Notes: generated from the letters alone by a model not told the origin. A stretch of DNA of 32,000 bases from Methanothermobacter thermautotrophicus str. Delta H (GCF_000008645.1 NC_000916.1:300001-332000); one strand, 5' to 3'. Shown: positions 3,441 to 30,295, numbered from the stretch's first letter. Program-made: numbers and translations.

Positions 3441-3471
3441 TCAAAAAGAAAAAATGAGGTTTATTAACCTC
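3441..3471 (-). terminator. Hairpin plus oligo-T terminator after the PMBR/transglutaminase gene
   Basis: Minus strand reads GAGGTT-AATA-AACCTC (6-bp stem, overlapping the last base of the TAG stop), followed by ATTTTTTCTTTTTG. Confidence 0.6.
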
Positions 3472-7497: not shown

Positions 7498-8607
7498 ATG
7501 TCATTGCATGATTCATTCGTCAGGTTTCTGCTGAATTCATGGATTGGAAGAGCCCTTAACCTTATCATGGTTGCCATAAATCGTCTTGTACCCAAGAGGG
7601 ACAATCAGATACTCTTTGAAAGCATACCAGATTTTTCAGATAACCCTTCCCAGCTTTACAGTTACATTAAATCCCTTGGAACAGATTACAGGATGATATG
7701 GGTGGTTGACAGTATCAGGGATGACCTCGACGCCCCACAGTATCTGAGGAACACTCCATCAGAATTCTGGCAGTTCCTGAGGTCAAGGTACATAGTCAGC
7801 TCCCACGGCTATCACCTCATGATAAGGGCGGGTAATCAGGTCTACCTCAACCTCTGGCATGGGATGCCCCTGAAGGCAATGGGCTACACAGAAAGGGAGC
7901 CATCCATACTGCTCCCGGGGGTATGTGATGAGAACTACTACCTCATCGCAACTTCCACCATAATGAGGAATGCCCTGGCGGCCTGCTTCAACCAGGACGC
8001 CCGCAGGATACACATAACAGGTCAGCCAAGGAACGATAAACTCCTCACAGAGGGCAGAACCATGGATGATTCCAGGACCATAATCCTGTACACACCAACC
8101 TACCGGGATACCGGGAGGGACGAGTCCATATTCAGCATGCCGGACTACAGTGAGGAGAAATTTCAGGACTTTCTCAGGGAACATGACGCAGTCTTCCTCA
8201 TGAAGCTTCACCCACTCGATTCAGGGATCAGGCAGAGGTCCGGGGGTAATATCAGGGCCCTTGACCCGTCAGAGGATCTCTACGACATCCTCCAGGGGGT
8301 TGATGTCCTTGTAACCGATTACTCATCGGTCTACTTTGACTTTCTGCTCCTTGACAGGCCTGTGATCTTTGCAGTCCCTGACCTGGAGGAGTACCGGAGG
8401 GTCAGGGGTTTTGTCCTGGAGCCCTTCGAGTTCTGGGCCCCGGGTCCCCGTGTTGAAACCTTCACGGATTTCCTGGAGGAACTTGAAAGGTGTCTTGAGG
8501 ACGATGACTATTACAGGAGGGAGAGGAGGATCGTGAACAGCCTCGTGAACCAGCACCAGGACGCGGGGTCATCCAGGAGAGTCTATGAACTGGTCTGGGG
8601 TGATTGA
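7498..8607 (+). CDS. TagF/TagB-family CDP-glycerol:glycerophosphate glycerophosphotransferase-like protein (paralog 1)
   Basis: 369 aa. RBS GGAGGATCA sits 3 nt before the ATG. Motifs YLNLWHGMPLKAMGY, IHITGQPRNDKL, ILYTPTYR, VLVTDYSSVYFDFLLLDRPVIFAVPDLEEY are typical of Glyphos_transf. Confidence 0.8.
   Translation: MSLHDSFVRFLLNSWIGRALNLIMVAINRLVPKRDNQILFESIPDFSDNPSQLYSYIKSLGTDYRMIWVVDSIRDDLDAPQYLRNTPSEFWQFLRSRYIVSSHGYHLMIRAGNQVYLNLWHGMPLKAMGYTEREPSILLPGVCDENYYLIATSTIMRNALAACFNQDARRIHITGQPRNDKLLTEGRTMDDSRTIILYTPTYRDTGRDESIFSMPDYSEEKFQDFLREHDAVFLMKLHPLDSGIRQRSGGNIRALDPSEDLYDILQGVDVLVTDYSSVYFDFLLLDRPVIFAVPDLEEYRRVRGFVLEPFEFWAPGPRVETFTDFLEELERCLEDDDYYRRERRIVNSLVNQHQDAGSSRRVYELVWGD
7927..8043. 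repeat. 117-bp near-identical block shared by the two tagF-like genes, copy 1
   Basis: gatgagaactactacctcatcgcaacttccaccataatgaggaatgcc...gaacgataaactc matches 11512-11628 with 2 mismatches. Confidence 0.9.
8281..8603. repeat. ~320-bp near-identical 3' block of the tagF-like genes, copy 1 (direct repeat)
   Basis: Ungapped alignment to 11935-12254 at a constant offset of 3654 bp, with roughly ten mismatches by eye. Confidence 0.9.
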
Positions 8608-9825
8608 ATGAGGATTGGACTCATATTACCATCCCTTGATGATAGTGGAGTCGCCAGGGCCGCTGCCAGTCTATCATCTCTTCTATCAGAGCACCATGAG
8701 GTGCACGTGATCACAGTTTACAGACATGAACCCCTGCAGGAGTGGAGTGGCAGTTTCCATGTCCTGGACGTCCCCCCTGCCTCTCCAGGGGATGAACTAC
8801 CCCGGAGGCTTGGACTTTTCATAAGGAGGATACTTGCACTGCGACGCATCAAGGCTGAACTTGAACTTGATGTCTCGGTATCCTTCTCAGAGGCCCTCAG
8901 CATACAGAACATATTCACAGCCGGCTCTGACAGACCGGTTGTAAGTCATCACACTGTACTCTCAAGGAATGAGAACCTTGACGATATCTATGGGAGGGGT
9001 GTGAAGGCCCTCGTGAGGCTCACCTATCCCAGGGCGGCTGGAATAATCTGTGTATCCATGGAGTCGGCCACTGACCTCACTGATGCCTACGGTATCGACC
9101 CCCGGCAGGTAGCGGTGATACCAAACCATATAGACGTCGATGCCATTGAGGGGGCTGCTGTTCTACCGGCAAGGTGGAATGATGTGTTCACCGCACCTGT
9201 GATCCTGACCGCTGGAAGGTTGACACATGCCAAGGGCCAGTGGCACCTTATCAGGGTGTTCGCCAGGCTAAAAGAACTCATACCCGACCTCAAACTGGTC
9301 ATAATGGGTGATGGGGACCTGAGGGAGTACCTGCAGGGACTATCAGAGGACCTTGGTCTTAAAACCTTCACCGGTGGCGAGCCAGGTGAATATGACGTTT
9401 ACTTTGCTGGATTCCAGAGGAACCCCTATGGTTTCATGGCACATTCAGACCTCTTTGTCCTGCCATCACTGAGGGAGGCACTCCCGCTTGCCCTGATGGA
9501 GGCCATGGCCCTGGGGACGCCTGTTGCAGCCGCAGACTGTGGGGGTCCAAGGGAGATACTTGCCCCCAGTTCAGATCCATCATTCAAAACCGAGAAGACG
9601 GAATTCGCAGATTACGGGGTCCTTCTACCTCCCTTTGATGGTGAAATGAGGGCTGCAGATGATGAACTGTGCAGGGAGGAAAGGTTATGGGTCGATACAC
9701 TCCACGAGATCATCACAGACAGGAAGGTCCTTGACTCATACTCTGAGCGGGCCAGGGAGAGGGCCTCCAGTTCAGCCCTGATGCCATCAGGAGGAGGTGG
9801 CTTGATTTCCTTGATGCCGTGGTAG
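8608..9825 (+). CDS. GT4-family glycosyltransferase (3' end possibly frameshifted; alternative stop at 9836)
   Basis: 405 aa. The ATG immediately follows the tagF-like stop. GT-B/GT4 motifs ILTAGRLTHAKG, FVLPSLREALPLALMEAMALGTPVAAADCGGPREIL (E-x7-E). Confidence 0.85.
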   Translation: MRIGLILPSLDDSGVARAAASLSSLLSEHHEVHVITVYRHEPLQEWSGSFHVLDVPPASPGDELPRRLGLFIRRILALRRIKAELELDVSVSFSEALSIQNIFTAGSDRPVVSHHTVLSRNENLDDIYGRGVKALVRLTYPRAAGIICVSMESATDLTDAYGIDPRQVAVIPNHIDVDAIEGAAVLPARWNDVFTAPVILTAGRLTHAKGQWHLIRVFARLKELIPDLKLVIMGDGDLREYLQGLSEDLGLKTFTGGEPGEYDVYFAGFQRNPYGFMAHSDLFVLPSLREALPLALMEAMALGTPVAAADCGGPREILAPSSDPSFKTEKTEFADYGVLLPPFDGEMRAADDELCREERLWVDTLHEIITDRKVLDSYSERARERASSSALMPSGGGGLISLMPW

Positions 9826-9856
9826 ATCAGGGATAAAATGTTTGATGGGATGGATA

Positions 9857-10678
9857 TCAGCCTTTGCCGGTGGCGTCGGGGCTCATCCCGGTGACCTCCA
9901 GGATCAGACGCCTCCACTTCTCCCCGATAACCTGGGGGGACCTGGTTTTCAGTACATGGGCCCTCAGGTTCTCACCCCATTCACGAACCAACGAAGGATC
10001 TTCAATAGTTTTTACGAGTTTTTTGATCATGTCTTCTTCGCTTTCTGCTATTATACCATGGACTCCATCCTCGAGTTCCTCGAATTCACTTTTAAACTTG
10101 GCTATTGGGACTGACAGGTAGCCTGCCTCCATTGCAGCATATCCAAGTTCAATCATTTCATATCCAAGGATTATCATGTCTGCTGATTTGAGATAGCATA
10201 AGAAGTCGTCGCGGTAAGCCATCATTTTAATATGGGGATTGTCTGTTTCTACGGGAGTGCCAAAAACTAAAAGTTGAATTTTTCTATCTGTTCTTTTATT
10301 CACCTCTGTAATTATCCTTGAAAGTCTCTCCATCCCTTTAATTAGTGATCCTCCTACACTAACATATGTTACAAGGGTGAAATCGTCAAATGATAAATTT
10401 TTGCAGTTGGCCACTTTCTTGTCTACGTCTGCTGTTATGAAAGCATTTGGTATGACAACACCATTAATTCCATTTTTTTCTAGTTTTATCCTAGCAATTG
10501 CAGTAACACGACTATAAATCAGTGGGATGAATATCAGCCTGTGCAGTATCCAGTTTATTATCCTGAAGATGTAGTGGAAGTTCCCCCTGGGGTTCATCCT
10601 GAGGGCGGTTATTGCCTCATCCATAACCCAGCCATGTACCGTGAGGATTGCGGGCACCCCGCTTCTGCGGATCATCAT
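9857..10678 (-). CDS. GT4-family glycosyltransferase, C-terminal 273-aa fragment of a split gene
   Basis: Begins MMIRRSGVPAILTVHGW, which is the middle of a GT4 N-domain. It overlaps the upstream 75-aa ORF by ATGA. The C-terminus RSPQVIGEKWRRLILEV is typical of GT4 tails. Confidence 0.75.
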   Translation of the reverse strand: MMIRRSGVPAILTVHGWVMDEAITALRMNPRGNFHYIFRIINWILHRLIFIPLIYSRVTAIARIKLEKNGINGVVIPNAFITADVDKKVANCKNLSFDDFTLVTYVSVGGSLIKGMERLSRIITEVNKRTDRKIQLLVFGTPVETDNPHIKMMAYRDDFLCYLKSADMIILGYEMIELGYAAMEAGYLSVPIAKFKSEFEELEDGVHGIIAESEEDMIKKLVKTIEDPSLVREWGENLRAHVLKTRSPQVIGEKWRRLILEVTGMSPDATGKG

Positions 10679-10902
10679 AAGCCCCCGATGATGAGGGGCC
10701 CATGGACGTGTATGAGGTCATAGTCCCTGAGGTTGACCCTGTCAAGTTCTGATGCATGGACTGTTTCGGTGCTGGCTCCAAGCATCCTGTAAACGGTTTC
10801 CTGAGATTTAACAGCCCTCATGACACCACCCCCGGTGGATGGGTCGAAGGGTATTATCATCATTATCTTCATAAACTCCCTCGCTTTCAGTTTCCTGAAC
10901 AA
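10675..10902 (-). CDS. GT4-family glycosyltransferase, N-terminal 75-aa fragment of the same split gene
   Basis: MKIMMIIPFDPSTGGGVMRAV...YDLIHVHGPLIIGGL* is a truncated Glyco_trans_4-like N-terminus. It would fuse in frame to the next ORF if the C5 run at 10682-10686 were one base longer. Confidence 0.65.
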   Translation of the reverse strand: MFRKLKAREFMKIMMIIPFDPSTGGGVMRAVKSQETVYRMLGASTETVHASELDRVNLRDYDLIHVHGPLIIGGL

Positions 10903-11133
10903 AGTGTCTGATTACATGATTTTCCAGGTGTTCCACTGGGGGATCCTATTGTTTCTGCCGGTTAATCTAATTTGTGATGCAAGTTCTTTCCTGCATCCAT
11001 GATCCTCTCATGATCTTATCCTCTGTTCATGATGTTCTTGCGTTTTTTTGTCTGGCAGATGGATGGATCTATATATGGCCTTTGCCATAATGTGATTGAT
11101 CAATCCATGAATGCGAAACTGGAGGCCTGTTTC

Positions 11134-12258
11134 ATGTTAACACGTTTACTCAAGTTTATCAACTGGATTTTACCAAAGGACGATGGGCTGGCTGTATTTG
11201 ACAGTGTACCTGATTTTTCAGGAAACAGCCAGGCTCTGTTTGAATTCATGAGGGACATGGGTGAACCTGAAGCGGTATGGATCGTTGAAGAGCCCCTCGA
11301 CATTGAGGGTGTGAGACAGGAGAGGAGACACTCGCTGAGGGCCCTCCTCACCATTTTACGTGCTGGTTCCCTGGTCTCCACACACGGGAGGATGAGTGAG
11401 ATCCGTGTAAGGCGACAGAAGTATGTTAACCTCTGGCATGGAATGCCCCTGAAGGCCATGGGCTACGCTGAAACCGGCGGAAGGGAGTTTAAGGAACCCG
11501 TAAGGTTCGATGATGAGAACTACTACCTCATCGCAACTTCCACCATAATGAGGAATGCCATGGCGGCATGCTTCAACCAGGACGCCCGCAGGATACACAT
11601 AACAGGTCAGCCAAGGAACGATAAACTCTTCAGATCAGATGGAAGGATCCCTGAGATTACAGGTATTGATACCGGTTCCTACAGCAAGGTGGTGCTCTTC
11701 GCACCAACATTCAGGGCATCAGATTACATAAGTGATGGAAGACTCATATCCCACCACCTCAATCTCCCTGACTTTGATGCCGAGGCCTTCTCAGGGTTCC
11801 TGAAGGAAAAGAACATACTTTTCCTTGTGAAGTTCCATCCACTCGAAGAGGAGGAGGCAAGAAGATTCTTCAGTGAAATGGACAACGTGGTGCTGATAGG
11901 TAGCGATGACCTTGCAGAGAGATACATGGACCTCTATGACGTCCTCCCGGGGGTTGATGTCCTTGTAACCGATTACTCATCGGTCTACTTTGACTTTCTG
12001 CTCCTTGACAGGCCTGTGATCTTTGCTGTCCCTGACCTGGAGGAGTACCGGAGGGTCAGAGGTTTTGTCCTGGAGCCCTTCGAGTTCTGGGCCCCGGGTC
12101 CCCGTGTTGAAACCTTCAGTGATTTCCTGGAGGAACTTGAAAGGTGTCTTGAGGATGATGACTATTACAGGAGAGAGAGGAGGATCGTGAACAGCCTCGT
12201 GAACCAGCAGCAGGATGGGGAGTCATCCAGGAGAGTCTATGAACTGGTCTGGGGATGA
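11134..12258 (+). CDS. TagF/TagB-family CDP-glycerol glycerophosphotransferase-like protein (paralog 2)
   Basis: The track ORF starts at 11029. However, a TATA-like CTATATAT lies at 11069-11076 and GGAGG lies 8 nt before the ATG at 11134, so a start at 11134 is more likely (11107 is an alternative). Motifs YVNLWHGMPLKAMGY, IHITGQPRNDKL, LFAPTFR, VLVTDYSSVYFDFLLLDRPVIF. Confidence 0.8.
   Translation: MLTRLLKFINWILPKDDGLAVFDSVPDFSGNSQALFEFMRDMGEPEAVWIVEEPLDIEGVRQERRHSLRALLTILRAGSLVSTHGRMSEIRVRRQKYVNLWHGMPLKAMGYAETGGREFKEPVRFDDENYYLIATSTIMRNAMAACFNQDARRIHITGQPRNDKLFRSDGRIPEITGIDTGSYSKVVLFAPTFRASDYISDGRLISHHLNLPDFDAEAFSGFLKEKNILFLVKFHPLEEEEARRFFSEMDNVVLIGSDDLAERYMDLYDVLPGVDVLVTDYSSVYFDFLLLDRPVIFAVPDLEEYRRVRGFVLEPFEFWAPGPRVETFSDFLEELERCLEDDDYYRRERRIVNSLVNQQQDGESSRRVYELVWG
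11512..11628. repeat. 117-bp near-identical block, copy 2
   Basis: See 7927-8043. Confidence 0.9.
11935..12254. repeat. ~320-bp near-identical 3' block of the tagF-like genes, copy 2 (direct repeat)
   Basis: See 8281-8603. Confidence 0.9.
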
Positions 12259-12277
12259 AAAATAGGAAATGCATGTA

Positions 12278-12292
12278 ATTTTATTTTTTTAT
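12278..12292 (+). terminator. Oligo-T tract (ATTTTATTTTTTTAT) after tagF-like paralog 2
   Basis: T-rich run about 20 nt downstream of the stop at 12258, in a convergent intergenic region. Archaeal termination commonly uses oligo-T. Confidence 0.5.
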
Positions 12293-12344
12293 AGAGTCTT
12301 GCTGGCACCCCTCCTTTTCTCTGACAGTTCTCTGTGGGAGTCAT

Positions 12345-12731
12345 CTACCAGAGGTCATGTTTTTTGATCCCGTAGACCCTTATTGCCAGGACTATGGTTT
12401 CGGTTATTATCACGAGACATGCAACGATGTATATGTTCATGAATGCCGATACTGCAAGGAGCATTATCAGGTGCACAATTGAACCTATTATCACGCTGCC
12501 GTTGGCGTACCTCTGCTGTCCAAGAACGGCGAGGAAGGGGTAGCCCAGGGAGTATCGAGGGGATTACCACCATGAGGGCCACGGCAAGTAACCTTAGGAC
12601 GTTGACACTTGGCATGTACTGCGGGCCAAAGAGTATTCCTATTATGGTGGGCGCGAAGAGGATTATCCCGCCACAGAGGATGGTGTTGAGGGATGAGGGA
12701 CTAGCGCAGGACCTTCTTGTGGAATGCCCTG
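12345..12731 (-). pseudogene. Out-of-frame 3' remainder of the Wzx-type flippase gene
   Basis: Hand translation: a second frame reads [47 protein letters not shown]. This includes the first ~24 residues of track ORF 12355..12615. The original frame then resumes with [68 protein letters not shown] and stops at 12347..12345. The span 12345-13601 is 1257 nt, i.e. 419 codons. Confidence 0.7.
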
Positions 12732-13601
12732 TTAATGTGTCTTGGCCATATAGGGATATGTTACTGCTATCAGGGGGCTGTAGAGGCCCTGAGCAGCAGT
12801 GTAGAGTTCTTCAGCAGACCGAGTAGTACCCACTGCTGTGTTACCCGCGAATAAACCCAGGAAGAATGAGTTACTGCCGGTGTAGATCGAAACAGAGACC
12901 CTTGACAGGAAGAACTGGGTGCTGTCCCTGAAGGTCTCGTAAACCGTCCTCAGGGGTGGTAGATGGAACCTTACATTGAAGCGGGTCCTTATAATCCACT
13001 GAGAAATCACACCGGCGGTCAGGGTCCCCATGGACTGGAGAAGGGGTACGTAGAGGTAATCGGACGGACGTCTTATGAATATGAATATGGCTGCAAGGAA
13101 TATGAGGTTCGTGAGGACATTAAGGACGGTTATGTACTTCATCCGCTCCATGCCCTGATAGAACCAGGTCGGGAAGATCACATTCCCGATAACAAGTCCA
13201 AATGCAAAGGTATAGACCTGCCAGTTAACCGAGAAACGGGGGATGTTAAGGATGACGAGCAGGAGTATGCAGAAACTCAGGGTTGCAAGGATCCCCTTGA
13301 TTAACATGACGGAACTGAATATCTCGGATACACGGTGCGGGTCCTCCCTGTTCACCGATATCTCCCTCACAGCAGAAAGGTTGAAACCGTAATCGGTGAT
13401 GATGATGAAGTAGGTGTTGAATGCGATGGCAAAGTTCACAAGGCCATAGTTGTAGACACCCAGAACCCTGGTGAGGTACGGGAGGGTGATGAAGGGTATT
13501 ATGTAGACAAGCACCTGGAGGGTTGAAAGTGAGAGGAAGTTCTCGGCGAGAACCCTGTACTCCTCTGACCTGATAAGTCCCATGAGATCCCGGATACTCA
13601 T
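12732..13601 (-). CDS. Wzx/MOP-family polysaccharide flippase, N-terminal 289 codons (gene interrupted)
   Basis: RBS AGGAG upstream. Typical polysaccharide-biosynthesis-protein N-terminus (LAENFLSLSTLQVLVYIIPFITLPYLTRVLGVYNYGLVNFAIAF...). It ends prematurely at ...YPYMAKTH* after about 8 TM helices. Confidence 0.75.
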   Translation of the reverse strand: MSIRDLMGLIRSEEYRVLAENFLSLSTLQVLVYIIPFITLPYLTRVLGVYNYGLVNFAIAFNTYFIIITDYGFNLSAVREISVNREDPHRVSEIFSSVMLIKGILATLSFCILLLVILNIPRFSVNWQVYTFAFGLVIGNVIFPTWFYQGMERMKYITVLNVLTNLIFLAAIFIFIRRPSDYLYVPLLQSMGTLTAGVISQWIIRTRFNVRFHLPPLRTVYETFRDSTQFFLSRVSVSIYTGSNSFFLGLFAGNTAVGTTRSAEELYTAAQGLYSPLIAVTYPYMAKTH

Positions 13602-13621
13602 CGAAATAAACTCCTGATTAC

Positions 13622-14587
13622 CTAAAATTCGGGTCTGGATATCCTCTCCTGGAATTCCCTTATGTAGAGGTTGACGTTTTCAGGTTCCTGCATGGTCTGG
13701 TATACCATTTCAAGGACCGGCAGCTCAAGACCCTCTGTCAGCTCCCTTATGGCCCTTATGGACCTGAGGCTCTCTATGGTTATGGTGGAGTCCTCGCTGA
13801 GTCTCATCTTCTTACCCAGCATGAGCCCCAGGGTGCGGTTACGGCTCTTATCGGTTGTTGATGTGAGGAGAAAGTCTCCAAATCCACAGAACCTGTCATG
13901 GAGTTCACCGTACCCCATCTCATTGAGTATCAGGTTCATCTCCCTGAAGCATAGGGTCAGGAGGGAGTGGCGGTGATTCTCGCCTGTTATCTGTCCGTCG
14001 AGTATACCCATGGCCACGGCGTAGACGTTCTTGAGTATCCCGCAGAATTCAACACCCTCAACGTTCTCTGAGTGGTCGAGGATTATGCGGGGAGACTTCA
14101 GAAGCCCTGCAATTTCCCTCGCATATCTGGTGCTGGCACCCACTGTTATCCCGGACGTCATGCCCCTTATGAGTTCGTCGGCGAAGTTGGGACCGGATAT
14201 GCTGAATACTGTCCTGGACCCTGTTTCCTCCCTTATAACAGAGCTCATGGTTTTGAGGCCTGGGTGCTCTATTCCCTTTATACAGGATACTATCTTCTTA
14301 TCCTCAAGGCTGCTGTTCATTGACCTTACGATGCTCCTGAGGTTCCCTGATGGCACGGCCATGAATACGTACTCGGATTCCTCCAGCACGGAACCGTCCA
14401 TGAGTGTCGCCTCTATGTTATCCCTCAGTTTCACTCCAGGATGATAAGCGCTGTTTTCGCGCGTCCTGTTGATGTTCTCCACAACTTCGGATCTCCGGGC
14501 CATGAGGCGGACCATCTCAGCATTCCATGATAGGACCTGTGCTATCGCTGTTCCGAAGCTCCCTGCTCCAATGACCGTGACCATCAT
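13622..14587 (-). CDS. gpsA: NAD(P)H-dependent sn-glycerol-3-phosphate dehydrogenase
   Basis: 321 aa. N-terminal dinucleotide fold VTVIGAGSFGTAIAQVL, with the length and layout of the GpsA family (...ISGPNFADEL..., KNVYAVAMGI...). The start overlaps the upstream gene stop (ATGA at 14584-14587). Confidence 0.8.
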   Translation of the reverse strand: MMVTVIGAGSFGTAIAQVLSWNAEMVRLMARRSEVVENINRTRENSAYHPGVKLRDNIEATLMDGSVLEESEYVFMAVPSGNLRSIVRSMNSSLEDKKIVSCIKGIEHPGLKTMSSVIREETGSRTVFSISGPNFADELIRGMTSGITVGASTRYAREIAGLLKSPRIILDHSENVEGVEFCGILKNVYAVAMGILDGQITGENHRHSLLTLCFREMNLILNEMGYGELHDRFCGFGDFLLTSTTDKSRNRTLGLMLGKKMRLSEDSTITIESLRSIRAIRELTEGLELPVLEMVYQTMQEPENVNLYIREFQERISRPEF

Positions 14588-15279
14588 TTATGGTTCTCCA
14601 TGAAATATTTTCTGGCTTCCACGAGGTCCTCAGGGAAGTCCACCTCTATGCAGAACCTTTCGCCTATGTTGAGTGGTCTGAAGGTTTCCCCTTTCTCTAT
14701 GAGAATTTCAACTCCCCTCTCAAAGTAGTCCTGATCCTGGCATTCCCTGAGGGCATTCCTCAGCATGGGAATGGTTTCTCTGGAGACCTGATTTATTCCC
14801 ACAGCCTCCCCGAGGGGGTCCGTGACATTCTTGGACAGTTCCCTTATGAATCCCTGACTGTCGAGGCTGTATTTAACCTCTTCCTCCCCCACCTTCTTGT
14901 TGTCAACGCAGATGAGGTTTTCGCCCGGCTTCTCACCTATCATTTTGAGGATGGATGGGTCGAAGACCACGTCCCCGTTCATCCAGATCACATCCTCATC
15001 CATGTCCTCCAGCCCTATTAGAAGGCTTTTGGAGGTGTTTGTTTCGCTGTAGCGATGGTTGTAGACGAATTCAAGGTCGGGGTACCTCTCCTCTATGAGA
15101 TGGCCCCTGTAGCCCAGCACGACCCTCACGTTTTCTGTTGACGTTATCTGTGCTATATTTTCGAGCTGTTGATCCATTATCGTTTTTCCATCTCCGAGTT
15201 CCACGAGTGCCTTGGGTATTCCATGCCCAAGTCTGCTTCCGGTTCCTGCAGCAAGAATAATAACCCTAATAAGAATCAC
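14584..15279 (-). CDS. Nucleotidyltransferase (NTP_transf_3/LicC-like); candidate CTP:glycerol-3-phosphate (or related alcohol-phosphate) cytidylyltransferase
   Basis: 231 aa with a GTG start. Signature ILAAGTGSRLGHGIPKALVEL (G-x-G-x-R...PK). Translationally coupled to gpsA. The substrate assignment is inferred from context only. Confidence 0.7.
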   Translation of the reverse strand: MILIRVIILAAGTGSRLGHGIPKALVELGDGKTIMDQQLENIAQITSTENVRVVLGYRGHLIEERYPDLEFVYNHRYSETNTSKSLLIGLEDMDEDVIWMNGDVVFDPSILKMIGEKPGENLICVDNKKVGEEEVKYSLDSQGFIRELSKNVTDPLGEAVGINQVSRETIPMLRNALRECQDQDYFERGVEILIEKGETFRPLNIGERFCIEVDFPEDLVEARKYFMENHK

Positions 15280-15376
15280 CTTTAAATGTAGATAAGAACA
15301 ATTCTAGACCAGATTTATGTTGCATACTATTTAATTGTAATTGGTAACCGGGCCCCGGAAAAGGAGGTTTATAGGA

Positions 15377-16528
15377 TTGAGGATACTTCATGTAACACCA
15401 TACTTCAAACCCTCATGGGAGGCAGGTGGTCCTCCCCGTTCAGTCTATGACCTGGCATCGAGGCAGGTGTCTGCTGGACATGAGGTCACGGTCTACACAA
15501 CAGATGGGTTCAAGAGGCGACTTGACGTCGAGGTTAACAGGCCCCTCGATGTTGATGGCATAAGGACCTACTATTTCAGGAACCTTTCAATGTACCTGGC
15601 AGGGAATATGAACCTCCCGGTACCACTTAAACTCCCCTATGTTGCCTGGAGGGAGATCCGGGAATTTGATGTTGTTCATATCCATGAGCACAGAACCTTC
15701 CTTGCAGCCGTTGTAGCCACACTGGCATCACGTGCAGGTGTACCCTACATTGTACAGCCCCACGGCTCCGTCCCGACCATGTCGAGGGCTACCCTCAAGG
15801 AAGTATTCGATTTCATTGCAGGTAACCGGATAATGTACGGGGCGTCCCGGATAGTAGCAACATCCACTGTGGAGTCAGGTTTCTACCGGAAGGTTTACCC
15901 TAAACTCGACGCTGAGGCCATAGTGAAGGTACCTAACCCGGTCGATATCCCTCACAGACCATCCAGGGGGCTCTTCAGGAAGAAATGGGGTCTTGAAGAT
16001 GCGCGGATCATACTCTACCTGGGCAGGATCCATGAAAGAAAGGGTCTCGACATACTCCTCAGGGCCTTCAGGGACATGGATGAAGACACAGTTCTGGTCA
16101 TAACGGGACCTGATGACCACTACCTGGAAAGGCTCATGGGCCTCATAGATGAACTGGGAATCGGTGAAAGGGTTCTCCTGACAGGTCCCCTCTATGAAAT
16201 GGATAAACTTGAGGCCTATGTGGACGCCGATGTGTTTGTGCTGCCATCGGCATCAAAGTATGAATCCTTTGGGAACTCCGCTGCAGAGGCCATTGCCTGC
16301 GGCACCCCGGTTGTCGTAACTTCAAGTTGCGGGATATCTGAGTGGATGGATCCCGGTGATGGCATCATAGCGAGGCCCTCAGCCAGGGACCTGAGGGATG
16401 CCATAATCAGGGTCCTGAAGGAACGCGACTCCTTCAATCCATCGGCAGAGAAGTTCGACCCTGAATCAATATCAGAGACATTTGAGGACATTTACCTGGA
16501 GGTCACCCATAAGGCTTCCAGACACTGA
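15377..16528 (+). CDS. GT4-family glycosyltransferase
   Basis: The track ORF starts at TTG 15341. AGGAGG at 15362-15367 favours the in-frame TTG at 15377, giving (M)RILHVTPYFKPSWEAGGPPRSV. Motifs LYLGRIHERKG, FVLPSASKYESFGNSAAEAIACGTPVVVT. Confidence 0.8.
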   Translation: MRILHVTPYFKPSWEAGGPPRSVYDLASRQVSAGHEVTVYTTDGFKRRLDVEVNRPLDVDGIRTYYFRNLSMYLAGNMNLPVPLKLPYVAWREIREFDVVHIHEHRTFLAAVVATLASRAGVPYIVQPHGSVPTMSRATLKEVFDFIAGNRIMYGASRIVATSTVESGFYRKVYPKLDAEAIVKVPNPVDIPHRPSRGLFRKKWGLEDARIILYLGRIHERKGLDILLRAFRDMDEDTVLVITGPDDHYLERLMGLIDELGIGERVLLTGPLYEMDKLEAYVDADVFVLPSASKYESFGNSAAEAIACGTPVVVTSSCGISEWMDPGDGIIARPSARDLRDAIIRVLKERDSFNPSAEKFDPESISETFEDIYLEVTHKASRH

Positions 16529-16631
16529 AACCGGTTGGAGCACCTATGCAGAGGTTTATATGGGTCCAGCCAATTAATGATATGCAGTGATGGAAGTTGA
16601 TTGAAGTTATTTGGTGCAAGGGGTATCGATC

Positions 16632-17348
16632 ATGTCATATGATAGAAGGTTCATTTCAGTTGTTGCCATCTTCTCGGTCTTCATAGCCGTTATCCTTGTC
16701 CTTATCCAGAACAGTATAGGGATCTATTACTGGGACATTTTCCTGTATGTTAACAATGCCATGAAAATGGCCCACCTTGGACCCGGCGACGCCCTCTACC
16801 TACCACCATTCTTCCCGGCGGTGCTGGCCTTACTTTTCAGACTCGGGTTCACAGGTGAAATAACGGTATTTGCGGCGGCAGCGGCATTCTATGTTGCAGG
16901 TATCATCGGGATGTACCTCCTCCTCCAACTGAGATTCAGTGAAATGGAGAGCCTTGCAGGGGCCATCTCATTCGCATCCTTCAGCCTTATCCTATCATGG
17001 GCAGCCACAGGGTCCCTGGATGTCCCGGCCATCTCCCTCTCTATATGGGCCGTTTACCTTGCACTCATCGCAAGGAGGCGTGACAGCCGATTCTACTACC
17101 TTGCATTTCCGGTTGCAATGGCAGCATTTCTCACAAGATATACATCGGGTCTCATGCTGCTCCCACTTGCAGTGATAATACTCACTGACCCATCCCTCAG
17201 GTTAAAGCTGCCAGACATAGGCAGGGGAATTGGCCTGGGGGTCCTCCTCTACATCCCATTCGGGTACTTTTTTACAGAAACATCGGAACACCCCTACCCT
17301 TCACAAAACAGGTTTCATCCACAGTCACCGGTTCAGCCACATCCATAA
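16632..17348 (+). CDS. GT-C fold (ArnT/PMT-like) membrane glycosyltransferase, N-terminal fragment
   Basis: Multi-TM protein (MSYDRRFISVVAIFSVFIAVILVL...YYWDIFLYVNNA...FLTRYTSGLMLLPLAV). The frame turns non-membrane-like after ...LYIPFGYFF, at the T6 run 17268-17273. The ATG at 16632 is preferred over the TTG at 16611. Confidence 0.7.
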   Translation: MSYDRRFISVVAIFSVFIAVILVLIQNSIGIYYWDIFLYVNNAMKMAHLGPGDALYLPPFFPAVLALLFRLGFTGEITVFAAAAAFYVAGIIGMYLLLQLRFSEMESLAGAISFASFSLILSWAATGSLDVPAISLSIWAVYLALIARRRDSRFYYLAFPVAMAAFLTRYTSGLMLLPLAVIILTDPSLRLKLPDIGRGIGLGVLLYIPFGYFFTETSEHPYPSQNRFHPQSPVQPHP

Positions 17349-17410
17349 ATCCTGGCTACAGCACAGACAGCCTCTACTACCTCAAGCACCTTCCAGAGTA
17401 CATCTCAGCA

Positions 17411-18274
17411 ATGCCTTCACAGGATTACCTCAGGGTACTGAACCCCTCACTTTCAGGACCGACACCAATCGCCTTCATAATACTGGCCCTCATATCAGCA
17501 GGTTTACTGATTATTATATGGAGGAACAGGGACCTCATATCAACCGATAACCTCAGGGGAAAGATTATATTCATTGTAATATCTGCAGCACTCATATTCA
17601 CCTTTGGAAGGATATCCTTTGCACTTAGCGAGGTCCTCATATTCCTCTGGGCACTTTCAATCCTCTGGATAAGGGGGAACACTGATAACATTGAGATGAA
17701 CCTTGCGATGGCTGCCTGGGTCCTGGCCTACCTCTACATGCACAGCTTTCACCCTGTAAAGGCTGACAGGTACATCATAACAGTCCTGCCAGCCCTCGCC
17801 TACGCCATATCCCTTTCACTGAACAATTTATCTGCTTTGATGAGATCCAGGAGGGCATCGACGGTTCTGTCCATTGCAGTCACCCTTCTGATGGTCTCTT
17901 CGGCAATCCATTACACTGCAGGATGGCCCCAGGAATATGGGATAGTTAAGGGTGAGAGGAGCGGCGCCTGGCTCATGAACCATGACCCCTCCTACAGGGA
18001 CAGGGTCATAGCTGCTGACAGGGGCCCTGCCTTCACATGGTACCTTGGAGACTATGTCTTCACAAGGATAATCCACCCACAGCGTAGGGAGTTAAGCCTC
18101 AAGTACTTCTATGAAGTGAACCCTGACTACTATATATTCTGGACGGGTAAAACAGAGTTGCCTGAAGGTTACAGGGTCATATATTCAAGGGATGGGGTTC
18201 CATTGCCAGGAAGATTCAGTAGATATGCCGGGATCCTTCCCCTCCGGTACAGGATTCAGTGGATGTTGAGGTGA
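17411..18274 (+). CDS. GT-C fold membrane glycosyltransferase, C-terminal fragment (this frame is open and protein-like from about 17274)
   Basis: The same frame upstream of the ATG reads YRNIGTPLPFTKQVSSTVTGSATSINPGYSTDSLYYLKHLPEYISA. It joins the upstream fragment if the T6 run is read as T7. It contains several TM helices and a soluble C-terminal domain. Confidence 0.7.
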   Translation: MPSQDYLRVLNPSLSGPTPIAFIILALISAGLLIIIWRNRDLISTDNLRGKIIFIVISAALIFTFGRISFALSEVLIFLWALSILWIRGNTDNIEMNLAMAAWVLAYLYMHSFHPVKADRYIITVLPALAYAISLSLNNLSALMRSRRASTVLSIAVTLLMVSSAIHYTAGWPQEYGIVKGERSGAWLMNHDPSYRDRVIAADRGPAFTWYLGDYVFTRIIHPQRRELSLKYFYEVNPDYYIFWTGKTELPEGYRVIYSRDGVPLPGRFSRYAGILPLRYRIQWMLR

Positions 18275-18315
18275 TTCTCTCTGGCGAGGGATGGATTCGC
18301 TTAACAGATTGAAAC

Positions 18316-18324
18316 TATTTATAT
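18316..18324 (+). promoter_or_regulatory. TATA-box candidate (TATTTATAT) for the plus-strand operon 18480-24323
   Basis: Strong A/T element in the 205-bp gap, preceded by GAAAC (BRE-like). Two palindromes follow it (see finding). Confidence 0.45.
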
Positions 18325-18479
18325 GGCGAGTTCAATAACTAGTTTGAGTTAAACTAGGATATACTCTGAATCGTATATTGTGGGAAGGAAATCTTTATTC
18401 ATTCATATCATGAATAATGTTACCAGGAAAACCCTTATTCTTACAAGGGAAATCATCCAAAATAGGGAGTGATGCTAAT

Positions 18480-19421
18480 ATGGAAACTCAGAGAATACTC
18501 GTGACCGGTGGCGCCGGATTCATAGGTACAAACCTTGTCAATGAACTGAGGAACAGGGGCCATGAGGTCCTTGCGGTTGACCTCATGCACACAGAACGCG
18601 AGGACTACATGAGGGCCGATGTCAGGGAGTACAGGCAGGTTGAGAGGATCTTTGAGGAAGATAAATTCGACTACGTATACCACCTGGCCGCAGAGTACGG
18701 GAGATGGAACGGTGAGGACTACTATGAGAACCTCTGGAAGACCAACGTCATAGGTACAAAGCACATGCTGAGGATGCAGGAGAAGCTTGGCTTCAGGATG
18801 ATATTCTTCTCCTCAGCAGAGGTCTACGGGGACTACAGTGGTTTGATGAGTGAGGATGTGATGGTCAAAAACCCCATAAGCGACACCTACCAGATGAATG
18901 ACTACGCCATAACCAAGTGGGCCGGTGAACTCATGTGCATGAACTCTGCAGAGATGTTCGGCACAGAGACTGTCCGTGTGAGGCCGGTGAACTGTTACGG
19001 CCCCCATGAGAAGTACTCACCCTACAAGGGCTTCATACCCATATTCATCTACCATGCACTACACAGGAAGCCCTACACCGTCTATAAGGGCCATAAGAGG
19101 ATAATCGACTACGTGGAGGACTCCGTGAGGACCTTCGCCAATATCGTGGATAACTTCATCCCCGGGGAGGTCTACAATGTCGGCGGGCGAACCGAGTGGG
19201 AGCATGACATCAAGGAGTACTCAGACATGGTCCTTGAGGCTGTGGGGATAGATGACTCCATAGTCACCTACAGGGAGTCAGAGCCCTTCACCACAAAGGT
19301 GAAGACCATGGACTTCTCAAAGGCCATAAGGGACCTCAAACATGACCCACAGGTACCCCCCGAGGAGGGTATCAGGCGTACAGTCGAGTGGATGAAGTGG
19401 TACTACAGGATAGAGGACTGA
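18480..19421 (+). CDS. NAD-dependent sugar-nucleotide epimerase/dehydratase (extended SDR; dTDP-glucose 4,6-dehydratase-like)
   Basis: METQRILVTGGAGFIGTNLVNEL is a Rossmann fold at the N-terminus. YxxxK is present in YAITKWAGE. The track start at 18417 would add 21 non-Rossmann residues. GGGAGTGAT RBS-like sequence lies before 18480. Confidence 0.8.
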   Translation: METQRILVTGGAGFIGTNLVNELRNRGHEVLAVDLMHTEREDYMRADVREYRQVERIFEEDKFDYVYHLAAEYGRWNGEDYYENLWKTNVIGTKHMLRMQEKLGFRMIFFSSAEVYGDYSGLMSEDVMVKNPISDTYQMNDYAITKWAGELMCMNSAEMFGTETVRVRPVNCYGPHEKYSPYKGFIPIFIYHALHRKPYTVYKGHKRIIDYVEDSVRTFANIVDNFIPGEVYNVGGRTEWEHDIKEYSDMVLEAVGIDDSIVTYRESEPFTTKVKTMDFSKAIRDLKHDPQVPPEEGIRRTVEWMKWYYRIED

Positions 19422-19423
19422 AA

Positions 19424-20299: not shown

Positions 20300-20331
20300 C
20301 TGCAGAATCTACTGATGGAAGGTGATTGATT

Positions 20332-21324: not shown

Positions 21325-21351
21325 TCAAAAACCTTCTTTTTCTGATCGCAT

Positions 21352-22539: not shown

Positions 22540-22597
22540 GCATGATCCCACGAGGGGTGGTGATTACCTCAATGACTGTACCGCTGGAGGTGTCGCG

Positions 22598-23278: not shown

Positions 23279-23318
23279 TGTGGGAGCTGCTTCCCATCAC
23301 CTTCACATCTGAGAGGAG

Positions 23319-24323: not shown

Positions 24324-24357
24324 TGAGGGGCTTTGTGATGTATTTCTGATAGTCCTG

Positions 24358-24364
24358 TTTTTTT
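24358..24364 (+). terminator. T7 run after the plus-strand operon
   Basis: TTTTTTT lies 35 nt downstream of the stop at 24323, in a convergent gap. Confidence 0.4.
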
Positions 24365-24393
24365 GGAGGTCATATATCCTGATGAACTGATTT

Positions 24394-25812: not shown

Positions 25813-25817
25813 TTCAA

Positions 25818-26768: not shown

Positions 26769-26875
26769 ATTATCCCTGTCCGGCTGATGAAGTTTGATAT
26801 CGGTCAGTATTTGATCAGTCTTATCCGTTGATTTGAGCGGTTTTCATGCCTACAGATCACCATCTGAAGCATTAA

Positions 26876-30272: not shown

Positions 30273-30295
30273 TGTTGGATTATCATTCTTTTATC

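What the first reader, a model, noticed from the sequence alone, without database searches (positions are those of the whole stretch)
7498..15279. Bacterial-style glycerol-phosphate polymer (teichoic-acid-like) module with its own sn-glycerol-3-phosphate supply, in a pseudomurein archaeon
Seen: two TagF/TagB-family ORFs (7498-8607 and 11134-12258) with motifs WHGMPLKAMGY, IHITGQPRNDKL, TPTYR/APTFR, VLVTDYSSVYFDFLLLDRPVIF. On the opposite strand there is a translationally coupled pair (ATGA overlap at 14584-14587): a G-x-G-x-R...PK nucleotidyltransferase and a GpsA-type NAD(P)H glycerol-3-phosphate dehydrogenase. A Wzx-type flippase follows, and GT4 enzymes flank the module. Established: TagF-family enzymes transfer glycerol-phosphate from CDP-glycerol. 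GpsA makes sn-glycerol-3-phosphate. Archaeal membrane lipids instead use sn-glycerol-1-phosphate, made by a different enzyme (G1P dehydrogenase, EgsA), so a dedicated GpsA has no obvious lipid role here. The canonical CDP-glycerol synthase TagD (a small HxGH cytidylyltransferase) is not in the window. Inference: the LicC/NTP_transf_3-like enzyme is a non-orthologous CDP-glycerol (or CDP-alcohol) synthase. The module would then build or decorate a wall glycopolymer with glycerol-phosphate of bacterial stereochemistry. As I recall, tag-like genes have been remarked on in Methanobacteriales genome papers. I know of no biochemical demonstration of the pathway or the polymer.
Basis: partly seen in the sequence, partly recalled or inferred. 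Interest (0 to 1): 0.7.

Follow-up and report, generated by a model that had tools for sequence, protein, structure and literature searches.

The report
Archaeal glycerol-phosphate glycan module, own precursor supply
A methanogen surface-glycan gene cluster holds two teichoic-acid-type glycerol-phosphate transferases beside an enzyme pair that probably makes their donor, CDP-glycerol, by a route not used in the known bacterial pathway; the same three-gene set recurs in unrelated archaea, but no activity has been measured.

Summary
The window is 99.85% identical to Methanothermobacter thermautotrophicus CP064324.1.

What the window holds:
- Two full-length Glyphos_transf (TagF/TagB-type) genes, both with the catalytic histidines.
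- A LicC/PntC-like NTP_transf_3 nucleotidyltransferase (NT) overlapping by ATGA a GpsA-type glycerol-3-phosphate dehydrogenase with an intact DHAP site.
- A Wzx flippase 20 nt further downstream, and GT4 genes on both sides.
- No TagD-like gene.

- NT, GpsA and TagF-like genes sit together in 8 of 8 archaeal loci examined, including Methanoculleus and Thermoplasmata.
- Of 80 bacterial loci with 44-51% identical NT homologues, 64 carry a TagF-like gene. None carries a GpsA-like or TagD-like gene.
- This pattern fits sn-glycerol-3-phosphate as the NT substrate. Bacteria already make it for their lipids; archaea, whose lipids use the other enantiomer, must add an enzyme to make it.

Qualifications:
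- The split flippase and the split GT4 in the window look like sequencing errors.
- The module is not specific to pseudomurein archaea.
- It uses Wzx and lacks TagO/TagA/TagGH/LCP, so a glycerol-phosphate-bearing lipid-linked heteroglycan is more likely than a classical wall teichoic acid.
- TagF homologues in Methanobacteriales were already noted (Leahy 2010). The supply route appears undescribed.

The parts
7498..8607 (+). TagF/TagB-type CDP-glycerol glycerophosphotransferase, paralogue 1 (369 aa)
   Evidence: Pfam PF04464, E 4e-104, full length. Aligns to S. epidermidis TagF 3l7i with the H444 (WHG) and H584 (LHP) positions conserved.
8608..9836 (+). GT4 glycosyltransferase (405 aa ORF in the window; 409 aa in CP064324.1, because of a 1-nt gap at window 9763)
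   Evidence: Pfam Glycos_transf_1 and Glyco_transf_4. Coordinate mapping to L001.
9857..10872 (-). GT4-like glycosyltransferase, split in the window by a 1-nt gap at 10680; intact at 338 aa in CP064324.1
   Evidence: Pfam Glyco_trans_1_4 on the C-terminal piece. The N-terminal piece is the ORF 10675-10902. The intact gene is in L001.
11107..12258 (+). TagF/TagB-type glycerophosphotransferase, paralogue 2 (383 aa from the start called in CP064324.1; the window ORF opens at 11029)
   Evidence: Pfam PF04464, E 2e-104. 56% identical to paralogue 1 overall, with the last ~100 residues nearly identical. The last 331 nt are 95.5% identical.
12345..13601 (-). Wzx-type flippase (417 aa in CP064324.1; in the window a 289-aa ORF 12732-13601 plus frameshifted remainder)
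   Evidence: Pfam Polysacc_synt, E 1e-84. Indels are clustered at 12548-12878 relative to L001. The intact gene is in L001.
13622..14587 (-). GpsA-type NAD(P)H-dependent glycerol-3-phosphate dehydrogenase (321 aa)
   Evidence: Pfam NAD_Gly3P_dh_N and NAD_Gly3P_dh_C. Best PDB matches are bacterial and eukaryotic G3P dehydrogenases. K104, K195, D238, T242 and R249 align with the substrate-site residues of L. mexicana GPDH. The closest homologues are archaeal and sit next to NT and TagF genes.
14584..15279 (-). LicC/PntC-like NTP_transf_3 nucleotidyltransferase (231 aa), proposed CTP:glycerol-3-phosphate cytidylyltransferase
   Evidence: Pfam PF12804. No NCBIfam model reaches its cut-off. AF2 model pLDDT 94. 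Foldseek top hits are PntC, IPCT and LicC. Conserved context. Overlaps the GpsA start by ATGA.
15280..15376 (.). A+T-rich divergent intergenic region between the NT operon and the GT4 gene; presumed promoters
   Evidence: Sequence read directly. Promoter function is inferred, not tested.
15377..16528 (+). GT4 glycosyltransferase (383 aa as called in CP064324.1; the window ORF opens at TTG 15341)
   Evidence: Pfam Glycos_transf_1 and Glyco_transf_4. L001 gene call.
16611..28693 (.). Rest of the surface-glycan island: PMT_2 GT-C (apparently in two ORFs), three SDR epimerase/dehydratases, two GT2, one GT4, LPG_synthase_TM, a second Wzx (24394-25860), and a DUF1616 membrane protein
   Evidence: Pfam scans. 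Whether these genes work with the glycerol-phosphate module is inferred from contiguity only.

Best explanation
This is a glycerol-phosphate branch built into a Wzx-dependent surface-glycan cluster of Methanothermobacter thermautotrophicus.

Proposed steps:
1. GpsA (13622-14587) reduces dihydroxyacetone phosphate with NAD(P)H to sn-glycerol-3-phosphate. This is the enantiomer that archaeal lipid synthesis does not provide.
2. The translationally coupled LicC-like nucleotidyltransferase (14584-15279) condenses it with CTP to give CDP-glycerol. It does the job that the unrelated HxGH enzyme TagD does in bacteria.
3. The two TagF/TagB-type transferases (7498-8607 and 11107-12258) move glycerol-phosphate from CDP-glycerol onto acceptors. 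Their C-terminal ~100 residues are nearly identical and their N-terminal halves differ, so they probably share the donor and serve two different acceptors. (Assigning the C-terminal part to donor binding and the N-terminal half to the acceptor rests on general knowledge of TagF-type folds.) The acceptors are probably sugars of a lipid-linked oligosaccharide made by the neighbouring GT4 and GT2 enzymes.
4. Wzx (12345-13601) flips the product outward.

Shown here: family membership, conservation of catalytic residues, gene overlap and order, and conservation of the cassette across lineages.

Inferred: the NT substrate, the stereochemistry, the acceptors, whether the transferases add one unit or polymerise, and where the product is attached.
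For: Family and active sites
- Both TagF-like proteins match PF04464 over their full length. TagF1 was aligned to TagF 3l7i and keeps both catalytic histidines; TagF2 carries the same WHGMPLK and HP motifs in the pairwise alignment.
- GpsA matches both Pfam domains and aligns at the five substrate-site residues, including the phosphate-binding Arg.
- The NT model (pLDDT 94) is closest to PntC, IPCT and LicC, with TM about 0.8.

Operon structure
- ATGA overlap between NT and GpsA, then a 20-nt gap with AGGAG before Wzx.

Archaeal context
- NT, GpsA and Glyphos_transf are adjacent in all 8 archaeal loci examined: Methanothermobacter, a Halobacteriota MAG, Methanoculleus, a Thermoplasmata MAG and four unnamed archaeal contigs.
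- This holds even where the NT is only ~30% identical to the window's.
- All 5 close GpsA homologues whose context was looked up sit in this cassette.

Bacterial context
- Among 80 loci with 44-51% identical NT homologues, a Glyphos_transf-like gene is present in 64. It lies within 5 kb in 59 and within 500 bp in 28.
- In one MAG the two appear fused.
- GpsA-like and TagD-like genes are present in 0 of 80.

Literature
- Every characterised CDP-glycerol synthase I found is of the TagD type.
Against: - No enzyme activity, product or polymer has been measured.
- The NT has no characterised close relative. Its best solved homologue, PntC, is ~21% identical and acts on aminoethylphosphonate.
- Public annotations name the family phosphocholine or phosphoglutamine cytidylyltransferase.
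- LicC-type enzymes are known to take varied substrates and can be promiscuous.
- 16 of 80 bacterial NT loci have no detectable TagF-like gene. In some the neighbour is a CDP-alcohol phosphatidyltransferase.
- GpsA scores below every NCBIfam curated cut-off.
- I could not scan the rest of the genome for a TagD-type enzyme.
- Glyphos_transf members can also use CDP-ribitol.
Confidence: 0.65

Rival explanations
1. The nucleotidyltransferase activates a different phospho-compound and the dehydrogenase has a related but different role. One example is a CDP-2-glycerol route like Gtp1/Gtp2/Gtp3 of Streptococcus pneumoniae 23F. Others are CDP-ribitol, CDP-choline or a nucleotide sugar.
For: - LicC-type (COG1213) enzymes act on phosphocholine, phosphoglutamine, phosphoglycerate and phosphosugars, and can be promiscuous.
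- A CDP-2-glycerol pathway associated with three genes exists in pneumococci. Its enzymology (Wang et al. 2010) I know only from memory.
- Public names for the homologues differ.
- In archaeal locus L097 the NT is fused to a HAD-type phosphatase or mutase-like domain.
Against: - No kinase or other extra conserved gene accompanies the archaeal triad.
- The 80 bacterial loci have no reductase partner at all. This suggests the substrate is a central metabolite in bacteria, as G3P is.
- GpsA keeps the arginine that binds the DHAP phosphate, which argues against unphosphorylated dihydroxyacetone as substrate.
- The window has no LicA, LicB or LicD.
- The nearest folds are small-molecule cytidylyltransferases, not sugar-1-phosphate enzymes.
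Confidence: 0.17
2. CDP-glycerol for the TagF-like enzymes comes from an HxGH (TagD-like) enzyme encoded elsewhere in the genome. The NT in the cluster makes a nucleotide sugar for the neighbouring glycosyltransferases. An older public annotation in the same 90% cluster as the Methanothermobacter homologue P0007, citing AAB84875, reads 'UDP-N-acetylglucosamine pyrophosphorylase related'.
For: - Weak NCBIfam matches to AglF and GlmU-type models, all far below cut-off.
- Methanogens carry HxGH cytidylyltransferase-like genes.
- I could not scan the whole genome.
Against: - The HxGH homologue studied in methanogens is the FAD synthetase RibL.
- NT is translationally coupled to GpsA and not to a sugar-modifying enzyme.
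- NT and Glyphos_transf are adjacent, sometimes overlapping or fused, across bacteria and archaea.
- The fold neighbours are cytidylyltransferases.
Confidence: 0.1
3. GpsA and NT do make CDP-glycerol, but for something other than a surface glycan, for example a compatible solute of the diglycerol-phosphate type or a lipid head group.
For: - In some actinobacterial loci the NT neighbours CDP-alcohol phosphatidyltransferase-family genes rather than TagF-like genes.
- CDP-glycerol-dependent solute synthesis is known in Archaeoglobus (from memory).
Against: - In the window and in all 8 archaeal loci the pair sits with TagF-like transferases, glycosyltransferases and, in four of the loci, a Wzx-type flippase or an ABC transporter.
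- The window has no CDP-OH_P_transf gene.
Confidence: 0.05
4. The module is decaying: the flippase and one GT4 are pseudogenes, so nothing is made.
For: In the window the flippase ORF stops at 289 aa and the GT4 is split into two frames.
Against: - The independently resequenced genome CP064324.1 is 99.85% identical and has both genes intact. The differences are clustered short indels typical of sequencing error.
- Metagenome contigs L002 and L003 carry the NT product exactly, and L002 again has the flippase intact at 417 aa.
Confidence: 0.03

Closest known systems
Bacillus subtilis 168 / Staphylococcus wall teichoic acid pathway (TagD, TagB, TagF, TagO, TagA, TagGH, LCP ligases)
   Same: Transferases of the same family (PF04464) with the same catalytic histidines and motifs. 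The presumed donor, CDP-glycerol, and the presumed sn-glycerol-3-phosphate unit are also the same.
   Different: - No TagD: a LicC-type NT sits in its place.
- A dedicated GpsA is part of the cassette.
- Wzx is present instead of the TagGH ABC exporter.
- The window has no TagO, TagA or LCP genes.
- The transferases are short (369 and 383 aa), the size of TagB or TarF rather than the TagF polymerase.
- The host is an archaeon.
Wzx/Wzy-dependent glycerol-phosphate-containing capsules and pneumococcal-type teichoic acid (S. pneumoniae cps loci with gct or gtp1-3; Bentley 2006, PMC1391919)
   Same: Glycerol-phosphate is added to a lipid-linked repeat unit built by glycosyltransferases and exported by a Wzx-type flippase. 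The genes for the activated glycerol donor lie inside the glycan locus.
   Different: Pneumococci use a TagD-type Gct, or the three-gene Gtp route to CDP-2-glycerol. Here the pair is GpsA plus a LicC-like NT with no kinase. I identified no Wzy here.
TagF-like capsule polymerases of Gram-negative pathogens (A. pleuropneumoniae Cps3D, C. jejuni HS1.09 with HS1.11; PMC11924219, PMC5974469)
   Same: A TagF-fold glycerol-phosphate transferase domain that acts on sugar acceptors. Cps3D (8qoy) matches TagF1 at E 1e-17.
   Different: Those are large multidomain polymerases working with ABC-transporter (group 2) export and a TagD-type cytidylyltransferase, HS1.11, which is 45% identical to B. subtilis TagD.
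LicC / PntC / IPCT / CpgD / Cj1416 group of cytidylyltransferases (COG1213, NTP_transf_3)
   Same: Same fold (TM ~0.8), the N-terminal LAAGxGxRL...PK signature, and a size of about 230 aa. They are CTP-dependent and activate small phospho-compounds.
   Different: Only 17-22% identity to any solved member. None of the characterised members I found uses sn-glycerol-3-phosphate in vivo. The family here has its own invariant motifs: TNTSKSLL, NGDVVFD, EEEVKY, GEAVGIN, DYFE.
Archaeoglobus fulgidus NAD(P)-dependent G3P dehydrogenase (PDB 1txg)
   Same: A GpsA-type enzyme in an archaeon. It matches the window protein at E 3e-13.
   Different: A distant relative. The window enzyme belongs to an archaeal clade that is consistently embedded in the NT/TagF cassette.

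Membership tests
Glyphos_transf (TagB/TagF/TarF/TarL, PF04464) | Full-length match to the family profile above the gathering score | tested here: met
   349 and 350 bits against a cut-off of 22.1, covering profile positions 2-366 of 367, for both ORFs.
Glyphos_transf (TagB/TagF/TarF/TarL, PF04464) | Catalytic His (TagF H444) and the pyrophosphate-contacting His (H584), plus the PRND, PT(W/Y/F)R and TDYSS motifs | tested here: met
   Alignment to 3l7i and to the H444N mutant 3l7j. WHG, LHP, GQPRND, TPTYRD and TDYSSV are all aligned. The roles of these residues are from memory of Lovering et al. 2010.
Glyphos_transf (TagB/TagF/TarF/TarL, PF04464) | Equivalence to a specific characterised enzyme (TarF, TarL or TarB) | tested here: not met
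   NCBIfam equivalog scores are 105-123 (TarF, cut-off 550), 72-85 (TarL, cut-off 1000) and 31-36 (TarB, cut-off 500).
Glyphos_transf (TagB/TagF/TarF/TarL, PF04464) | Use of CDP-glycerol as donor; single addition versus polymerisation | not testable with these tools
   Needs an enzyme assay.
Classical wall teichoic acid system (Tag/Tar) | TagD/TarD HxGH CTP:glycerol-3-phosphate cytidylyltransferase | tested here: not met
   No tblastn hit (E<=1e-3) in the window or in 8 archaeal loci, and none in 80 bacterial loci. The rest of the genome was not searched.
Classical wall teichoic acid system (Tag/Tar) | Linkage-unit enzymes TagO and TagA, ABC exporter TagGH, LCP ligase | tested here: not met
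   None among the Pfam assignments of the window's 29 scanned ORFs. Two Wzx-type flippases are present instead. These genes could lie elsewhere in the genome.
Classical wall teichoic acid system (Tag/Tar) | A poly(glycerol-phosphate) polymer covalently attached to the wall sacculus | not testable with these tools
   Only indirect: high wall phosphate was reported for M. ruminantium.
GpsA, NAD(P)H-dependent glycerol-3-phosphate dehydrogenase | N-terminal NAD-binding domain and C-terminal substrate domain (PF01210, PF07479) | tested here: met
   136 and 104 bits, both above cut-off.
GpsA, NAD(P)H-dependent glycerol-3-phosphate dehydrogenase | Substrate-site residues (L. mexicana K125, K210, D263, T267, R274) | tested here: met
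   K104, K195, D238, T242 and R249 align with them. The residue roles are from memory of the GPDH structure papers.
GpsA, NAD(P)H-dependent glycerol-3-phosphate dehydrogenase | NCBIfam curated cut-off | tested here: not met
   Best score 231.5 against a cut-off of 257 (NF000942). All 14 G3P-dehydrogenase models (NF000939-47, NF0112xx, NF009098, TIGR03376) score below their cut-offs.
GpsA, NAD(P)H-dependent glycerol-3-phosphate dehydrogenase | DHAP to sn-G3P activity and stereochemistry | not testable with these tools
   Needs an assay.
LicC-type (COG1213 / NTP_transf_3) cytidylyltransferases | Family profile match and fold | tested here: met
   PF12804 at 54 bits against a cut-off of 27. Foldseek to PntC, IPCT and LicC with TMq 0.79-0.86 and probability 1.00.
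LicC proper (CTP:phosphocholine cytidylyltransferase) | Orthology to LicC and a lic context (LicA kinase, LicB transporter, LicD transferase) | tested here: not met
   17% identity and E 1.6e-4 to 1jyk. No LicA, LicB or LicD in the window.
Gtp1/Gtp2/Gtp3 CDP-2-glycerol pathway | Three-gene set that includes a glycerol-2-phosphotransferase (Gtp3) | tested here: not met
   No third conserved gene accompanies the archaeal NT-GpsA pair. Direct sequence comparison with Gtp1 and Gtp2 was not possible, because the sequences and the paper are not held.

The most novel reading that the evidence does not exclude
A large, uncharacterised family of LicC-like cytidylyltransferases is the CDP-glycerol synthase of many Actinomycetota, Bacteroidota and archaea, replacing TagD. 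Archaea from at least three orders (Methanobacteriales, Methanomicrobiales, Thermoplasmata) pair it with a dedicated GpsA. They do so to make the 'bacterial' enantiomer sn-glycerol-3-phosphate only for surface glycans. On this reading archaea display teichoic-acid-like glycerol-phosphate glycans whose stereochemistry is opposite to that of their own membrane lipids.
Probability: 0.5. Interest if true: 0.7.

Novelty: new variant of a known kind. Interest (0 to 1): 0.55.

Why it matters
If the assignment holds, three things follow.
1. It gives a function to a very large protein family. Thousands of homologues are now labelled phosphocholine or phosphoglutamine cytidylyltransferase, and this would add a second, non-homologous route to CDP-glycerol.
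2. It predicts glycerol-phosphate-bearing surface glycans in methanogens and Thermoplasmata. This would bear on the high wall phosphate reported decades ago for a related methanogen, Methanobrevibacter ruminantium. It would also matter for phage and antibody targeting of rumen and gut methanogens.
3. It offers a clean natural case of the two glycerol-phosphate enantiomers being kept apart in one cell: G1P for lipids and G3P for glycans.

All steps can be tested directly with four recombinant proteins and a cultivable, genetically tractable organism.

Tried and rejected
- **Pseudogene reading.** Rejected after comparison with CP064324.1. The breaks are short indels and both genes are intact there.
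- **Bacterial context by simple methods.** tblastn and crude ORF calling gave messy results in the high-GC loci. I replaced them with a six-frame jackhmmer search.
- **Genome-contig scan.** Archaeal context had to come from exact-protein look-ups instead. One look-up, P0053 from Methanobacterium formicicum, found nothing on record.
- **Gtp comparison.** I tried to obtain the CDP-2-glycerol paper (Wang et al. 2010) and the Gtp family assignments. The paper is not held under its DOI, PubMed id or PMC id, and Bentley 2006 has no supplements held. That rival is therefore argued only from context.
- **Literature searches.** I looked for a demonstrated archaeal teichoic-acid-like polymer and for a LicC-type CDP-glycerol synthase. 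I found only genome-annotation remarks.
- **Loci without a TagF-like gene.** Pfam scans of neighbours in the 16 such bacterial loci gave CDP-alcohol phosphatidyltransferases in the three acI/Nanopelagicaceae-like loci (L020, L032, L088; Pfam run on L088) and otherwise nothing informative.
- **Promoter and terminator scans.** Not run, because the tool covers sigma-70 promoters only.

Full report
**Source and state of the sequence**

The nucleotidyltransferase (NT) product is encoded exactly in NCBI assembly GCA_027554905.1, record CP064324.1 (1,751,429 bp), fetched as L001. L001 aligns to window 4584-25278 at 99.85% identity. The differences are 14 substitutions and 17 gap positions, several of them clustered at window 12548-12878 and 17922-17964. 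The window also encodes a protein with five pseudomurein-binding repeats and the first gene of the Eha hydrogenase operon. It is therefore a Methanothermobacter thermautotrophicus chromosome segment.

The clustered indels matter. In the window the flippase is a 289-aa ORF followed by out-of-frame pieces, and one GT4 gene is split. In CP064324.1 the flippase is 417 aa and the GT4 is 338 aa. I read the breaks as sequencing errors in the window, not gene decay.

**Check of the observation**

- Both TagF-like ORFs match Pfam Glyphos_transf over the whole profile (E about 1e-104).
- TagF1 aligns to S. epidermidis TagF (PDB 3l7i, E 4e-21). WHG sits on H444 and LHP on H584. The H444N mutant entry 3l7j confirms the register.
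- 13622-14587 carries both GpsA domains. 14584-15279 is an NTP_transf_3 protein.
- The ATGA overlap, and the 20-nt AGGAG-containing spacer before the flippase start, are in the sequence.
- GT4 genes flank the module.
- A TagD probe finds nothing in the window.
- The start of the second TagF gene is better placed at 11107, as in CP064324.1.

**The dehydrogenase**

- Its best solved relatives are bacterial, trypanosomatid and human G3P dehydrogenases (E 7.5e-33 to 1e-18).
- In the printed alignments K104, K195, D238, T242 and R249 fall on L. mexicana K125, K210, D263, T267 and R274. I recall these as the catalytic and DHAP-binding residues, the arginine holding the phosphate.
- The protein therefore looks like a working DHAP reductase. 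It is not a dihydroxyacetone reductase and not an unrelated NAD-binding protein.
- It does fall below all NCBIfam curated cut-offs, so it is a divergent member.
- Its nearest relatives in a search of 5.8 billion proteins are all archaeal where a source names the organism: Methanothermobacter, Methanobacterium, Methanoculleus, Methanomicrobiales, Thermoplasmata.

**The nucleotidyltransferase**

- No NCBIfam model comes near its cut-off.
- By sequence the best solved relative is the phosphonate cytidylyltransferase PntC (E 9e-9). LicC, GlmU and IPCT are weaker.
- An AlphaFold2 model built on 34 homologues is confident (pLDDT 94.3).
- Its best structural matches are PntC (TMq 0.85), the inositol-1-phosphate cytidylyltransferase of IPCT-DIPPS, and LicC. 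All three are CTP-dependent activators of small phospho-compounds. Sugar-1-phosphate enzymes rank below them.
- The family is large: 7,668 scored relatives with E<=1e-5. It is tightly conserved, with invariant TNT-SL, NGD, EE-KY, GEAVG-N and DY-E.
- Sources label members 'phosphocholine cytidylyltransferase family', 'L-glutamine-phosphate cytidylyltransferase' or 'choline kinase'. These are family-level guesses.

**Context in bacteria**

A scan of one genome per species returned 80 loci with 44-51% identical NT genes. They come mostly from Microbacteriaceae and other Actinomycetota, plus Bacteroidota, Desulfovibrionales-type bacteria and Bacillota.

| Feature in the 80 loci (six-frame iterative profile search) | Count |
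|---|---|
| Glyphos_transf-like gene present | 64 |
| ... within 5 kb of the NT | 59 |
| ... within 500 bp of the NT | 28 |
| GpsA-like gene | 0 |
| TagD-like gene | 0 |
| ABC-transporter ATPase | 39 |

- In Bacteroidales the NT is followed directly by the transferase.
- In one actinobacterial MAG the two lie in a single ORF that scores for both Pfam families.
- In acI/Nanopelagicaceae-like actinobacteria the neighbours are CDP-alcohol phosphatidyltransferase-family genes instead. This still points to a CDP-alcohol as the product.
- Canonical teichoic-acid loci keep TagD next to TagB/TagF (from established knowledge). Here the NT occupies that place.

**Context in archaea**

Eight loci were examined, counting Methanothermobacter once. 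All have NT, GpsA and a Glyphos_transf gene side by side, often overlapping.

| Locus | Source | Arrangement |
|---|---|---|
| L001 / window | Methanothermobacter | NT overlaps GpsA, Wzx next, two TagF-like genes nearby |
| L008-L010 | Halobacteriota MAG | NT, GpsA, TagF-like in a row |
| L091 | Methanoculleus sp. YWC-01 | NT overlaps GpsA; TagF-like adjacent; Wzx nearby |
| L093 | unnamed archaeal contig | GpsA divergent from NT; NT overlaps TagF-like |
| L094 | Thermoplasmata MAG | TagF-like, NT, GpsA; Wzx nearby |
| L095 | unnamed archaeal contig | TagF-like overlaps NT, divergent from GpsA; Stealth, GT2s, ABC transporter |
| L096 | unnamed archaeal contig | NT, GpsA, TagF-like, all overlapping |
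| L097 | unnamed archaeal contig | TagF-like divergent; NT fused to a HAD domain, overlapping GpsA |

- Five of these loci (L091, L094-L097) were reached from GpsA homologues. So this archaeal GpsA clade is, as far as sampled, a dedicated part of the cassette.
- In L091, L094 and L097 the NT is only about 30% identical to the window's, yet the arrangement is the same.
- None of the loci has a TagD-like sequence.

**What the contrast implies**

The contrast is the core argument. Bacteria make sn-glycerol-3-phosphate for their phospholipids and need only NT plus transferase. Archaea make sn-glycerol-1-phosphate for lipids with an unrelated enzyme (established knowledge) and add a GpsA to the cassette. 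This is what one expects if the NT substrate is sn-G3P and the product is the CDP-glycerol that TagF-type enzymes use.

**What is probably made**

- The two transferases are 56% identical overall. Their last ~100 residues are almost identical, and the last 331 nt are 95.5% identical.
- That mosaic suggests recent gene conversion of the C-terminal part, where I expect the donor site from the TagF structure, and divergence of the N-terminal half, which I expect to bind the acceptor. Two acceptors with one donor is the simplest reading.
- Their size (369 and 383 aa) is that of TagB or TarF rather than the TagF polymerase. They meet none of the equivalog cut-offs. Processivity is unknown.
- Export is by Wzx, and the island continues with GT4, GT2, GT-C, epimerases and a second Wzx.
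- No TagO, TagA, TagGH or LCP homologue is in the window.
- The cassette also occurs in archaea without pseudomurein.
- I therefore favour a lipid-linked heteroglycan, exported or perhaps protein- or lipid-attached, that carries glycerol-phosphate. It would be comparable to Wzx-dependent glycerol-phosphate capsules and pneumococcal-type teichoic acid. I do not favour a poly(glycerol-phosphate) wall teichoic acid tied to pseudomurein. Attachment to pseudomurein is not excluded.

**Literature**

- Leahy et al. 2010 noted teichoic-acid gene homologues in Methanobrevibacter ruminantium, and old reports of wall phosphate at teichoic-acid levels.
- Later papers only list the annotation.
- NCBI already names the archaeal transferases 'CDP-glycerol glycerophosphotransferase family'.
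- Characterised CDP-glycerol synthases found in the library are all TagD-type.
- A 2025 paper on the LicC-type enzyme CpgD lists phosphosugars, phosphocholine and phosphoglutamine as the known substrates of that group.
- The HxGH homologue of methanogens that has been studied is the FAD synthetase RibL.
- I found no description of the NT-GpsA supply route.

**Limits**

- Nothing here measures activity.
- The CDP-2-glycerol pathway of pneumococci is the most serious rival for the NT. It could be weighed only from context, because neither the paper nor the sequences were available.
- The rest of the genome was not searched for TagD.
- Sixteen bacterial NT loci lack a detectable TagF-like gene.

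**Verdict**

This is a new variant (a non-orthologous donor supply plus a dedicated GpsA) of a known kind of system, and it is of moderate interest.

Noticed in passing
window 9763, 10680, 11076, 12548-12878, 17922-17964, 18446-18447: Short indels (one- or two-base), several of them clustered, relative to CP064324.1. They split the Wzx flippase and a GT4 gene, and shift the ends of other genes. They look like errors in an older sequence of the same strain.
   Followed up: yes
window 8274-8603 versus 11928-12258: The 3' ends of the two TagF-like genes are 95.5% identical over 331 nt, while the proteins are only 56% identical overall. This suggests gene conversion or a partial duplication that homogenised the C-terminal part, presumably the donor-binding region.
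   Followed up: partly
window 3471-5075 (-): A protein with five pseudomurein-binding repeats and a transglutaminase-like core, with a weak match to the pseudomurein endoisopeptidase Pei. It lies just upstream of the glycan island, next to a PAS/GAF histidine kinase at 5259-7361.
   Followed up: no
window 16611-17348 and 17411-18274 (+): A PMT_2 (ArnT-like GT-C) N-terminal membrane domain is followed 63 nt later by a 287-aa membrane/soluble ORF with no Pfam hit. They may be the two halves of one GT-C enzyme. They are called as separate genes in CP064324.1 too.
   Followed up: partly
window 30272-31092 (+): The EhaA gene, the start of the energy-converting hydrogenase A operon, lies immediately after the glycan island.
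   Followed up: no
L097 5493-7004: In one archaeal metagenome contig the NT is fused to a HAD-superfamily domain (Hydrolase_6, Hydrolase_like, faint PGP_phosphatase) and overlaps GpsA. A phosphatase or mutase domain on the NT is unexplained. It could bear on which glycerol-phosphate isomer is activated.
   Followed up: no
L021 8735-10690: In an actinobacterial MAG a divergent Glyphos_transf domain and the NT lie in one uninterrupted ORF (651 aa). This is either a real fusion or an assembly artefact. In sister loci the two genes abut or overlap.
   Followed up: partly
L020, L032, L088 (about 7500-9940): In acI/Nanopelagicaceae-like actinobacteria the NT is divergently paired with two CDP-alcohol phosphatidyltransferase-family genes (Pfam confirmed on L088; L020 and L032 assigned by sequence clustering), one with DUF5941, instead of a TagF-like gene. 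This hints at a different use of the same CDP-alcohol.
   Followed up: partly
L095 7987-9636 and 13494-14975: One archaeal cassette is accompanied by a Stealth-family hexose-1-phosphate transferase and an ABC-2 type transporter pair. That is a more teichoic-acid or group-2-capsule-like export arrangement than the Wzx of the window.
   Followed up: no
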